A DNA stretch of 64,000 nt from Escherichia coli. Lineage in GTDB: Bacteria; Pseudomonadota; Gammaproteobacteria; Enterobacterales; Enterobacteriaceae. Below the pieces are notes generated by a model, which was not told where the DNA came from, made no database searches, and was given only the letters and a program-made list of their open reading frames with translations. The stretch lies in the NCBI RefSeq assembly GCF_024298765.1, contig NZ_CP101210.1, one strand, 5' to 3'. Of this stretch, positions 21,785-24,254 are shown piece by piece; the stretch's first letter is position 1; the number at the start of each line of letters is the position of its first letter. Both the position numbers and the translations under genes were made by a program.

Positions 21785-22565
21785 TTAACGCGCTCGCTGC
21801 GAAAGCACCTGCTGCTTATCCAGCTTTTGCACCAGCGGCTGCACCACTTTATCCCCATGCTGACCAAAGTATTGATACAGCGTATCGGACGCACTTTTGG
21901 TCAGCACCATAATCTCAATGCGCCGGTTGCCCGCGCTTTGCGGATTTTTGGCATCCAGCAACATCTGGTCCGCCATTGCGCTTACCTGCATCACTTTATC
22001 TTCCGGCATTCCGGCCTCTTCCAGCACCCGACGAGCCGAAAGCGCGCGATCGCCCGAAAGGTTCCAGTTGTTGTAGATATTGTTTTTGTAGGCCATCGCA
22101 TCGGTATGCCCGGTAATAATAATTTTGTTATCGAGAGAGTCGAACACCGGCGCAAGCTCCACCAGCAGCGTTTTAAAGAACGGCATAATCTTCGCGCTGC
22201 CGCGTTCAAACATATTGCGGTTCTGGTCGTCTTTAATCAGCACGCGTAATCCCTGGGGAACAATCTCCATCTCCAGATTCGCTTCCATATGCGCATCACG
22301 GGCGATGGTATTGATACTGGTTGCCAGCTCGCCAAGCTCGGTGGCGGATTTCTTCTTCAGCAGCGCCGTTTTCTCGTTGACGTCGCGCGCTTTTTTCTCC
22401 GTCTCTTCCGGCACCGCCACGGTGGCAGGTTTTGGCGGATGAGACGGGCTGATTTTATTTAACGGCGACAGCCCGCCACCATTGAAAATCGACTGCCCGT
22501 GCAGCGCGGCGATAATGCTTTCACGCTCGGATTTACTGACGCTGTTGACAATCAACTTTATCGTC
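21785..22565 (-). pseudogene. lafU: lafU' (MotB-like Flag-2 motor protein), N-terminally truncated
   Basis: OmpA/MotB C-terminal domain present (IIITGHTDAMAY...NWNLSGDRALSARRVLEEAGM...NRRIEIMVL) but no N-terminal transmembrane segment. Abuts the lfhA fragment. Confidence 0.7.
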
Positions 22566-22568
22566 GTC

Positions 22569-24254
22569 ACCAAGGGGGCCGAGCGTATTTCCGAGGTTTC
22601 TGCCCGCTTTACCCTGGACGCGATGCCCGGCAAACAGATGGCGATTGACGCCGATCTTAACGCCGGGTTGATCAACCAGACGCAGGCGCAAACCCGGCGT
22701 AAAGATGTCGCCAGCGAGGCCGATTTCTACGGCGCAATGGACGGGGCATCAAAATTTGTGCGCGGGGACGCCATCGCCGGGATGATGATTCTGGCAATCA
22801 ACCTGATCGGCGGCGTCTGTATCGGCATCTTCAAATACAACCTGAGCGCCGACGCCGCCTTCCAGCAATATGTGCTGATGACTATCGGCGATGGGCTGGT
22901 GGCGCAAATCCCTTCCCTGCTGCTCTCCACCGCGGCGGCGATTATCGTCACCCGCGTCAGCGATAACGGTGATATCGCCCATGACGTGCGTAATCAGTTG
23001 CTGGCAAGCCCGTCGGTTCTCTACACCGCCACTGGAATTATGTTCGTGCTGGCGGTGGTGCCGGGAATGCCGCATTTCCCGTTCCTGATGTTCAGCGCCC
23101 TGCTTGGTTTTACCGGCTGGCGGATGAGCAAGCGCCCGCAAGCGGCGGAGGCGGAAGAGAAAAGCCTCGAAACGCTAACCCGTACGATGACAGAAACCAG
23201 CGAGCAACAGGTCAGTTGGGAAACTATTCCGCTGATCGAACCTATCAGTTTAAGCCTCGGCTACAAACTGGTGGCGCTGGTGGATAAAGCGCAGGGCAAC
23301 CCGCTCACCCAGCGTATTCGCGGCGTACGTCAGGTGATTTCCGACGGCAACGGCGTGCTGCTGCCGGAGATCCGTATTCGGGAAAACTTCCGCCTCAAGC
23401 CCAGCCAGTACGCCATTTTCATCAACGGCATTAAGGCTGATGAAGCGGATATTCCGGCAGATAAACTGATGGCCCTGCCCTCCAGCGAAACCTACGGCGA
23501 GATAGACGGCGTGCTGGGGAACGACCCGGCGTACGGGATGCCGGTCACCTGGATTCAGCCCGCGCAGAAAGCGAAGGCGCTGAATATGGGGTATCAGGTG
23601 ATCGACAGCGCCAGCGTAATTGCCACCCATGTGAATAAGATTGTGCGCAGCTATATTCCTGATTTGTTTAACTATGACGATATTACTCAGCTGCATAACC
23701 GTTTGTCGTCGATGGCACCGCGACTGGCGGAAGATTTGAGCGCGGCGCTCAATTACAGCCAGTTGCTGAAAGTGTACCGGGCGCTACTGACTGAAGGCGT
23801 TTCCCTGCGCGATATCGTCACCATCGCCACCGTGTTGGTCGCCAGTAGTGCGGTGACTAAAGATCATATTCTGCTGGCGGCCGATGTGCGCCTGGCGCTG
23901 CGGCGCAGCATTACCCATCCGTTCGTTCGCAAGCAGGAGCTGACGGTGTATACGCTGAATAATGAGCTGGAAAATCTGCTGACCAACGTGGTGAATCAGG
24001 CGCAACAGGCCGGCAAAGTGATGCTTGATAGCGTGCCAGTGGATCCGAATATGCTCAACCAGTTCCAGAGCACGATGCCTCAGGTGAAGGAGCAGATGAA
24101 AGCGGCGGGGAAAGATCCGGTGCTGCTGGTGCCGCCGCAGCTGCGCCCCTTGCTGGCGCGCTACGCAAGGTTGTTTGCGCCGGGGCTGCATGTGCTGTCG
24201 TATAACGAAGTGCCGGATGAGCTGGAGTTGAAGATAATGGGGGCGCTGATATAG
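22569..24254 (+). pseudogene. lfhA: lfhA' (FlhA homolog of the Flag-2 system), lacking about the first 130 codons
   Basis: Homology to FlhA begins at GAERISEVSARFTLDAMPGKQM, an internal FlhA region. The preceding part of the ORF is antisense to lafU' and not FlhA-like. Confidence 0.7.

What the first reader, a model, noticed from the sequence alone, without database searches (positions are those of the whole stretch)
21785..24254. Flag-2 deletion scar: lafU and lfhA fragments fused
A MotB-like C-terminal fragment (minus strand) abuts an FlhA-like gene missing about its first 130 codons (plus strand), with the junction near 22565. This is the signature of deletion of the Flag-2 lateral flagellar cluster, leaving only its two terminal gene remnants.
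Basis: partly seen in the sequence, partly recalled or inferred. Interest (0 to 1): 0.3.

Follow-up and report, generated by a model that had tools for sequence, protein, structure and literature searches.

The report
Flag-2 lateral flagella deletion scar
This is the well-known scar left in most E. coli when the ~36-kb second (lateral) flagellar gene cluster was lost, leaving only the fused tail ends of its two outermost genes; it is ordinary, though the same junction in other genera is unexplained.

Summary
The window is 100% identical to E. coli Nissle 1917. At 21785-24254 a 3' fragment of lafU (MotB-like, minus strand) is fused to a 3' fragment of lfhA (FlhA-like, plus strand).

Alignment to five intact Flag-2 loci, including E. 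coli 042, puts the junction in a 3-bp ATC microhomology at 22551-22553, not near 22565. lfhA lacks exactly 130 codons. lafU lacks 51 codons, including its transmembrane/plug segment. Between 35.0 and 38.1 kb of flagellar genes are missing.

This is the K-12 lfhA/lafU (fhiA/mbhA) scar described by Ren et al. 2005. Of 5426 complete E. coli genomes, 4071 carry it and 1281 carry the cluster interior. It is already known.

One thing remains unexplained. The same junction occurs in E. albertii, Kluyvera ascorbata and a Citrobacter, each with its own diverged flanks. Scar alleles are not a clade: K-12 and ST131 scars have flanks identical to intact relatives. Remnant sequences show dN/dS of about 0.03 and no stops or indels, except a premature stop in the E. 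albertii type strain. Chance recurrence is excluded. I could not separate spread of one junction by homologous recombination from a site-directed excision.

The parts
21785..22553 (-). lafU remnant. It is the 3' 769 nt (255 codons plus stop) of the lateral-flagellar MotB-like stator gene. It keeps the OmpA-like peptidoglycan-binding domain and has lost the N-terminal 51 codons, which carry the transmembrane/plug segment.
   Evidence: 96.7-97.3% identical to dinB plus the 3' part of lafU in intact loci; the lafU remnant alone is 96.2-98.3% identical. Pfam OmpA hit is present, but MotB_plug (PF13677), found at residues 19-70 of intact LafU, is absent. The lost N-terminus reads ...WKVAFADFTLAMMALFMTL.
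22551..22553 (.). Deletion junction. The ATC trinucleotide is present at both breakpoints of intact loci, and the crossover lies within it. Imperfect repeat: GCTGTTGACAATC against CCTGATGATCATC.
   Evidence: Base-by-base three-way alignment. The same ATC is at both sites in five intact loci. The same 3-bp overlap is seen in seven E. coli scars including K-12.
22551..24254 (+). lfhA remnant. It is the 3' 1704 nt (567 codons plus stop) of the lateral-flagellar FlhA gene, beginning at INFIVVTKGAERI. The first 130 codons, the N-terminal part of the membrane domain, are missing.
   Evidence: FHIPEP profile matched from position 99 of 657. TIGR01398 FlhA scores 592 bits, below its 772 cut-off, aligned from model position 118. 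PGAP note: 'missing N-terminus'.
21785..22570 (-). CDS that RefSeq/PGAP calls 'LafU' (261 aa, WP_000207550.1). Its GTG start and first 5-6 codons come from the antisense strand of the lfhA remnant, so it is a fusion ORF created by the deletion and not an intact gene.
   Evidence: Annotation of NZ_CP022686.1. NCBIfam NF005273 scores 478 bits, above its 383 cut-off, although only model positions 42-297 are covered. The K-12 record marks the same gene as a pseudogene.
22482..24254 (+). Mechanical ORF (TTG start, 590 aa) that extends the lfhA remnant 23 codons into antisense lafU. The upstream extension differs in Kluyvera (674 aa) and Citrobacter (563 aa), so no conserved start exists.
21729..21748 (-). 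SOS (LexA) box TACTGTATACTTTACCAGTG of the dinB promoter, in the 70-bp spacer between the lafU stop and the dinB start. The deletion left it untouched. The identification as the dinB LexA box is from my own knowledge of the consensus CTGT-N8-ACAG.
   Evidence: Sequence read directly.
24273..24569 (.). Array of three 99-nt REP/BIME-type repeat units immediately after the lfhA stop. This is the native right border of the locus. rayT, which follows it in K-12 and 042, is absent here.
   Evidence: Related copies occur inside intact Flag-2 loci and at window 27134-27266.

Best explanation
The region is the Flag-2 deletion scar of E. coli, here in a Nissle 1917-identical chromosome. In Flag-2-positive strains, a cluster of about 40 lateral-flagellar genes lies between dinB and the REP/rayT/yafL region. 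It is bounded by lfhA and lafU, both transcribed outward. A deletion with endpoints inside these two genes removed their 5' ends and everything between, 35-38 kb depending on the comparator. The two 3' fragments are joined head to head at an ATC trinucleotide. Neither remnant can do its original job. The LafU fragment lacks the transmembrane helix with the conserved Asp and the plug region, and has no signal for export. The LfhA fragment lacks its first 130 residues, its start codon and its promoter. The scar allele is the majority state in E. coli. Shown here: the anatomy, the endpoints, the loss of domains and the population frequency. Inferred: both remnants are non-functional. Also inferred, at roughly 55-60%: all carriers share one junction because it arose once and has since moved between backgrounds by homologous recombination, with flanks repeatedly homogenised against functional alleles.
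For: The window is 100% identical to Nissle 1917, with gene order dinB-lafU'-'lfhA-yafL. Endpoints were mapped on two intact loci, including 042, and confirmed on three more. Domain loss is shown. The junction is identical in seven scars from different phylogroups, including K-12 b0229/b0230. 4071 of 5426 genomes have the fused form and 1281 have the interior. The window has no interior genes. Literature: K-12 and B retain only fhiA (lfhA) and mbhA (lafU) remnants (PMC3032704). [quoted passage not shown] The same ~1700-bp and 769-bp fragments occur in ST131 S250 (PMC5369007) and in E. albertii (PMC11420993). For a single origin: 3474 microhomology pairs as good as the real one exist in the terminal 2-3 kb alone, and there is no extended homology, so independent illegitimate deletions would give many different junctions.
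Against: Nothing contradicts the identification as the scar. Three results argue against a simple 'one old deletion, inherited as dead DNA' history. First, scar alleles are not a clade. The K-12 scar matches intact 160-11H1 at 0/1704 and 0/769 differences, EC03 (scar; its lafU and dinB products are the same proteins as in ST131 strain SE15) matches Esc20 (intact; its flhA and rayT products are the same proteins as in ST131 strain EC958) at 0/0, and SE15 and EC958/Esc20 show 0 SNPs in 12.1 and 7.4 kb of flank. Haplotype groups nevertheless differ by 5-6.5% right up to 12 bp from the junction. Second, dN/dS among scar alleles is 0.033, the same as among intact alleles, with no stops or indels. 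Third, the same junction sits in 18-21% diverged native flanks in Kluyvera and Citrobacter, with dS above 1 and dN/dS of 0.02-0.045. These need either extensive recombination up to the junction or a different mechanism.
Confidence: 0.93

Rival explanations
1. Recurrent, site-directed excision. Under this view the Flag-2 interior is removed repeatedly and independently at the same ATC core in lafU and lfhA. An unidentified sequence-specific mechanism would do this, possibly reversibly, like an excisable element. Each scar, including the Nissle one, would be a separate recent event on its own native haplotype.
For: The junction is identical in E. coli phylogroups, E. albertii, Kluyvera ascorbata and Citrobacter sp. 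MGH106, with native variants within 6-12 bp of the junction. Scar and intact pairs have identical flanks in ST131 and in phylogroup A. The remnants show the purifying-selection signature of genes that were functional until recently: dN/dS about 0.03 within E. coli and 0.02-0.045 between genera, with no stops or indels in 1704 bp. The Flag-2 interior is as old and diverged (3-10%) as the flanks, so it was not recently imported. About 25% of strains are Flag-2-positive in both E. coli and E. albertii (PMC11420993).
Against: No recombinase or transposase gene is annotated in five intact loci. The two breakpoints share only ATC plus a 9/13 imperfect repeat and no common binding-arm-like motif. An 8-bp inverted repeat at the lafU site is broken in strain EC14. 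The haplotype switch between 160-11H1 and EC14 near lfhA lies about 100-140 bp inside the breakpoint, not at it, so recombination is clearly active here. The ST131 literature interprets the difference as a gain (PMC5369007). The closest intact relative of the Nissle-type remnant is only 98.2-98.3% identical.
Confidence: 0.25
2. The remnants are not dead. Under this view a truncated LfhA, a truncated LafU, or the fusion ORFs have been kept by selection for a new role, which would explain why the reading frames stay open.
For: Both frames are open in 7 of 7 E. coli scars and in Kluyvera and Citrobacter, with dN/dS of 0.02-0.045. PGAP calls the LafU fragment a normal protein. A Keio mbhA (lafU) mutant of K-12 is listed among ciprofloxacin-sensitive persister mutants (PMC13131330).
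Against: The E. albertii type strain's lfhA remnant is broken after 336 of 567 codons. There is no conserved start codon upstream of the lfhA fragment across genera. LafU has lost its membrane anchor and proton-channel segment. Selection on remnants cannot explain why scar alleles are identical to intact alleles of the same lineage rather than forming their own clade. The Keio phenotype could be a polar effect on dinB, whose SOS promoter lies 37-56 bp from the lafU stop. K-12 curators mark both as pseudogenes.
Confidence: 0.06
3. One reading: the two genes are full length with alternative starts, and the strain carries Flag-2 elsewhere.
For: Only that long ORFs with TTG or GTG starts can be drawn across the junction.
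Against: Orthologues at the same locus are 307 and 697 aa, and the missing parts are the 5' ends. The profile matches start at FHIPEP position 99 and LafU model position 42. There is one match in the Nissle chromosome and no interior sequence in the window.
Confidence: 0.01

Closest known systems
E. coli K-12 MG1655 lfhA (b0229, formerly fhiA) and lafU (b0230, formerly mbhA) pseudogenes, the Flag-2 deletion scar of Ren, Beatson, Parkhill and Pallen 2005 (J Bacteriol 187:1430; known to me and cited in PMC3032704 and PMC6993521; the paper itself could not be opened)
   Same: Same chromosomal position next to dinB. Same two gene fragments in the same head-to-head orientation. Same junction (3-bp ATC overlap) and same fragment lengths of 1704 and 769 nt.
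   Different: The sequence differs by about 5% overall: 94.2% identity in lfhA and 97.5% in lafU. In this window the neighbouring rayT, dinJ-yafQ and yafN-yafO genes are absent and rtcB-prfH are intact. RefSeq annotates lafU here as a protein-coding gene, whereas the K-12 record annotates it as a pseudogene.
Intact Flag-2 locus of enteroaggregative E. coli 042 (NC_017626.1 284682-323159)
   Same: lfhA and lafU are the terminal, outward-facing genes. The window fragments align at 94.1% (lfhA) and 96.2% (lafU) identity to their 3' parts, and the 042-side coordinates of the endpoints are. The flanking dinB, yafL, dpaA, yafJ and lpcA are shared.
   Different: 042 retains the 36,008 bp between the two ATC sites, roughly 40 flagellar and cargo genes. 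042 itself has a frameshifted lfgC (PMC3032704).
Scars in other genera: E. albertii NBRC 107761, Kluyvera ascorbata ATCC 33433 and Citrobacter sp. MGH106
   Same: The junction is the same at codon level...GACGCTGTTnACAATC|AACTTyAT..., in syntenic context.
   Different: Whole-region nucleotide identity to the window is 89%, 80% and 78% respectively; over the lfhA remnant alone it is 82% (Kluyvera) and 80% (Citrobacter). The E. albertii lfhA remnant stops prematurely. Citrobacter has an extra gene between dinB and lafU.

Membership tests
Flag-2 deletion scar (K-12 type lfhA'/lafU') | Lies between dinB and the REP/rayT/yafL side of the locus that holds Flag-2 in positive strains | tested here: met
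   Gene order from the Nissle annotation and ORFs. The same flanks are seen in 042, K-12 and four other intact strains.
Flag-2 deletion scar (K-12 type lfhA'/lafU') | A 3' fragment of lafU and a 3' fragment of lfhA joined head to head, with both 5' ends missing | tested here: met
   BLAST and base-level alignment to intact loci. 130 and 51 codons are missing.
Flag-2 deletion scar (K-12 type lfhA'/lafU') | Junction identical to that of K-12 and other Flag-2-negative strains | tested here: met
   The same 3-bp overlap and the same fragment lengths, without indels, in K-12 and five other scars.
Flag-2 deletion scar (K-12 type lfhA'/lafU') | Interior Flag-2 genes absent from the genome | tested here: inconclusive
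   They are absent from the 64-kb window. The Nissle chromosome has one match to the scar query. Scar (4071) and interior (1281) genomes sum to 5352 of 5426. The whole Nissle genome was not scanned directly for interior genes.
FlhA / FHIPEP export-gate family (functional member) | Complete N-terminal membrane domain and a whole-protein score above the curated cut-off | tested here: not met
   FHIPEP matched only from position 99 of 657. TIGR01398 scores 592 bits against a cut-off of 772, from model position 118. The intact orthologue matches positions 1-656.
MotB/LafU stator family (functional member) | N-terminal transmembrane helix with the conserved Asp, plus the plug (Pfam MotB_plug) | tested here: not met
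   MotB_plug is found in intact LafU at residues 19-70 and not in the remnant. The lost segment is ...AFADFTLAMMALFMTL.
MotB/LafU stator family (functional member) | C-terminal OmpA-like peptidoglycan-binding domain | tested here: met
   PF00691, E 2e-14. NF005273 LafU scores 478 bits against a cut-off of 383 over model positions 42-297, which explains why PGAP names the fragment as if intact.
Site-specific excisable element (considered for the novel reading) | A recombinase gene in or next to the element, and related core sites with shared binding arms at both ends | tested here: not met
   No recombinase is annotated within five intact loci. RayT lies outside, next to REPs and not at the breakpoints. 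The two sites share only ATC plus 9/13 bases.

The most novel reading that the evidence does not exclude
Flag-2 may not have been lost once. It may be removed again and again, and perhaps reinserted, by a precise, sequence-directed excision at a conserved ATC core inside lafU and lfhA. This would operate in E. coli, E. albertii, Citrobacter and Kluyvera. The 'scar' would then be the empty site of a roughly 36-kb excisable flagellar module, and the 75:25 absence/presence ratio would be a dynamic equilibrium.
Probability: 0.25. Interest if true: 0.7.

Novelty: already known. Interest (0 to 1): 0.25.

Why it matters
The scar itself matters little. It is a textbook pseudogene pair in K-12 and is routinely used as a Flag-2-negative marker. 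Its practical value here is in annotation. RefSeq names the LafU fragment as a normal protein although it has lost its membrane segment, and the fragment lies 37-56 bp from the dinB SOS box, so knock-outs of 'lafU/mbhA' may act through dinB.

The wider pattern could matter more. One exact junction is shared across three genera, it shows no linkage to flanking variants, and its remnants look selectively maintained. Either homologous recombination homogenises the flanks of a large insertion/deletion polymorphism right up to the boundary, or an unknown precise excision mechanism exists. The first is a useful natural case for bacterial population genetics. The second would be new biology and would change how presence and absence of Flag-2 is read in clones such as ST131.

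Tried and rejected
- Ren et al. 2005 could not be opened by PMC id or PubMed id. Its content is cited only through later papers and my own recollection.
- I looked for structural clues at the breakpoints. There is an 8-bp inverted repeat (GACGCTGT...ACAGCGTC) around the lafU site and a 10-bp palindrome (GATGATCATC) at the lfhA site. I rejected these as mechanistic evidence because the lafU repeat is broken in intact strain EC14 and the search was post hoc.
- I looked for extended or gapped homology between the two breakpoints. There is none: the best local score has p of about 0.05 against shuffles. 3474 equally good microhomology pairs exist nearby. Microhomology-driven recurrence is therefore rejected.
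- I looked for a recombination breakpoint exactly at the deletion endpoint in intact strains. The 160-11H1/EC14 haplotype switch lies about 100-140 bp inside, so this was not informative.
- A tip-branch test for relaxed selection on scar alleles gave private changes of 38 synonymous to 7 non-synonymous in lfhA. With 14 sequences, 'private' mostly reflects unsampled haplotypes, so the test is weak.
- A chimeric query was used to find an intact relative of the Nissle-type remnant. The best hits were 98.2-98.3% identical, so no near-identical intact parent was found for this window's own haplotype.
- A literature search for a function of mbhA/fhiA found only one screen listing.

Full report
**What is there.**
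- ORF listing and sequence show a 296-aa ORF at 21785-22675 on the minus strand and a 590-aa ORF at 22482-24254 on the plus strand. The two overlap around 22480-22675.
- Pfam finds an OmpA-family domain in the first. It finds FHIPEP in the second, but only from profile position 99 of 657.
- The 2470-bp interval is 100% identical to E. coli Nissle 1917. The RefSeq annotation there reads dinB, 'lafU', 'FlhA incomplete, missing N-terminus', yafL.

**Mapping the endpoints.**
- I fetched an intact Flag-2 locus from a B2-like strain (L002) and the reference locus of E. coli 042 (L004).
- Window 20659-22556 aligns to dinB plus the 3' part of lafU. Window 22551-24532 aligns to the 3' part of lfhA plus downstream REPs.
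- A base-by-base three-way alignment shows the lafU-side match ending at 22553 and the lfhA-side match beginning at 22551. The crossover therefore lies in a shared ATC, inside an imperfect repeat (GCTGTTGACAATC against CCTGATGATCATC).
- lfhA (697 aa when intact) has lost exactly 130 codons. lafU (307 aa) has lost 51 codons.
- Between the two ATC sites, five intact loci carry 35,027 to 38,138 bp. In 042 this is 36,008 bp, running from lfhB to lafT.

**What the remnants can do.**
- Intact LafU has MotB_plug at residues 19-70 and a hydrophobic helix ...AFADFTLAMMALFMTLWIV. The break falls at the end of that helix, so the remnant keeps only the linker and the OmpA-like domain.
- The LfhA remnant starts at INFIVVTKGAERI, after the first 130 residues of the membrane domain. 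It scores below the TIGR01398 cut-off.
- PGAP nevertheless names a 261-aa 'LafU' CDS (21785-22570). The fragment still passes the NF005273 cut-off, and its GTG start lies in antisense lfhA sequence. K-12 curators mark both genes as pseudogenes.
- The ORF extensions across the junction differ between genera.
- The dinB SOS box (21729-21748) lies just outside the lafU stop and is intact.

**Comparison with what is known.**
- This is the K-12 lfhA/lafU (fhiA/mbhA) scar. Position, orientation, fragment lengths and junction are all the same.
- Papers held in the library say that K-12 and B retain only these two terminal remnants (PMC3032704).
- ST131 strain S250 has a ~1700-bp lfhA and a 769-bp lafU fragment (PMC5369007).
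- Flag-2-negative E. albertii carry the same 2.5-kb remnant (PMC11420993).
- In 5426 complete E. coli genomes, 4071 have the fused form and 1281 have the interior. About 74 have other states, for example an IS421-associated larger deletion.
- The window contains no interior gene, only REP matches.
- The finding is correct and already known.

**Beyond the finding: an unexplained pattern.**
- I compared seven scars and seven intact alleles. All scars share the junction, with no indels or stops.
- Scars are not a clade. K-12's remnants are identical to the intact allele of strain 160-11H1 (0/1704 and 0/769 differences), and their flanks differ by 5 SNPs in 8.2 kb.
- In ST131, SE15 (scar) has 0 SNPs against EC958 over 12.1 kb on the lfhA side. 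It has 0 SNPs against Esc20 over 7.4 kb on the lafU side, where Esc20 is 99.995% identical to EC958 across the locus.
- Haplotype groups nevertheless differ by 5-6.5%. The nearest variable site, 12 bp from the junction, shows no association with scar status.
- dN/dS among scar alleles is 0.033 for lfhA and 0.036 for lafU, the same as among intact alleles, with dS of about 0.22.
- The interior is itself 3-10% diverged and mosaic among intact strains, so it is old in E. coli.

**The same junction in other genera.**
- A degenerate junction pattern scanned against one genome per species found the same junction in E. albertii, Kluyvera ascorbata ATCC 33433 and Citrobacter sp. MGH106.
- In these genomes the context is syntenic, the whole-region identity to the window is 78-89%, and native variants lie within 6-12 bp of the junction.
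- The Kluyvera and Citrobacter lfhA remnants are full-length open frames.
- Between genera dS exceeds 1 and dN/dS is 0.02-0.045.
- These remnants therefore cannot have drifted as dead DNA since a single deletion in a common ancestor.
- The E. albertii type strain's remnant does stop prematurely. That argues against universal selection for the fragments.

**What this does and does not show.**
- Chance recurrence by microhomology is excluded. 3474 equally good microhomology pairs exist in the terminal 2-3 kb, and there is no extended homology.
- Two readings remain.
- The first is one junction, identical by descent, moved between backgrounds by homologous recombination, with flanks homogenised against functional alleles up to the edge of the heterology. 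I favour this reading. Recombination is visibly active here, no recombinase or common site motif exists, and ST131 workers read the difference as a gain (PMC5369007).
- The second is a site-directed, recurrent excision. It would explain footprint-free state changes and the cross-genus identity most directly, but it has no known mechanism.
- For this window's own haplotype, the closest intact relative is only 98.2-98.3% identical. The Nissle-type scar is therefore not a very recent derivative of any sampled intact strain.

**Verdict.** The feature is already known and, on its own terms, of low interest. The shared-junction puzzle is recorded as the most novel reading not excluded.

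Noticed in passing
window 20659-20665 (dinB/yafP boundary): The yafN-yafO toxin-antitoxin pair that sits between dinB and yafP in K-12, 042 and L002 (752 bp) is absent here, and dinB and yafP overlap by 4 nt. The same dinB-yafP arrangement is seen in ST131 (SE15, Esc20) and EC14. yafO carries an internal stop in 042.
   Followed up: partly
window 24255-25590: rayT (the REP-associated tyrosine transposase found between lfhA and yafL in K-12, 042 and ST131) and dinJ-yafQ (between yafL and dpaA in K-12) are both absent in this Nissle-type window. Other strains carry hicAB at the rayT position (L009, L013-L015).
   Followed up: partly
window 24273-24569 and 27134-27266: Three tandem 99-nt REP/BIME-type units lie after the lfhA stop. 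Related copies occur at 27134-27266 and at several places inside intact Flag-2 loci.
   Followed up: partly
window 18881-20032 and Nissle locus L001 2486-4236: rtcB-family RNA ligase and prfH are intact here, whereas K-12 has only the ykfJ/prfH pseudogene remnants. The Flag-2-positive strain 160-11H1 shares the K-12-type rtcB/prfH truncation.
   Followed up: no
window 21785-22570 (-): There is an annotation inconsistency. RefSeq/PGAP calls the LafU fragment a normal protein (WP_000207550.1 and relatives) in Nissle and in every non-K-12 scar genome I fetched, because the fragment passes the NF005273 cut-off. The K-12 record marks it as a pseudogene.
   Followed up: yes
L016 (NZ_AP042480.1, strain OkiPb01676): A rarer state. 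An IS421 (IS4-like) element abuts the last ~146 bp of lfhA, and the rest of the scar plus dinB and more is gone, with ecpA/ecpR brought alongside.
   Followed up: no
L022 (JAIJJM010000815.1, 'Collinsella sp.' MAG) and L025 (SFGJ01000062.1, 'Clostridiales' MAG): Two metagenome-assembled-genome contigs assigned to Gram-positive taxa carry the scar at 94% identity to the window. These are almost certainly mis-binned Escherichia contigs.
   Followed up: partly
L020 (E. albertii NBRC 107761) 3722 onward: The lfhA remnant of the E. albertii type strain stops after 336 of 567 codons and its lafU remnant ends 6 codons early. It is the only decayed scar among those examined.
   Followed up: partly
L026/L027/L018 (ST131 EC958, SE15, Esc20): ST131 strains with and without Flag-2 have flanks with zero SNPs over 12.1 kb and 7.4 kb up to the junction. 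The published 'Flag-2 insertion' in ST131 therefore left no flanking recombination footprint.
   Followed up: yes
whole lafU-lfhA region, window 21785-24254 and intact loci: Synonymous divergence is about 0.22 in lfhA between E. coli phylogroups, which seems high to me for E. coli core genes (my recollection; no genome-wide comparison was run), and the interior is 3-10% diverged and mosaic, which suggests a recombination-rich, highly polymorphic locus. A Keio mbhA (lafU) mutant is listed as ciprofloxacin-sensitive in PMC13131330, possibly through dinB.
   Followed up: partly
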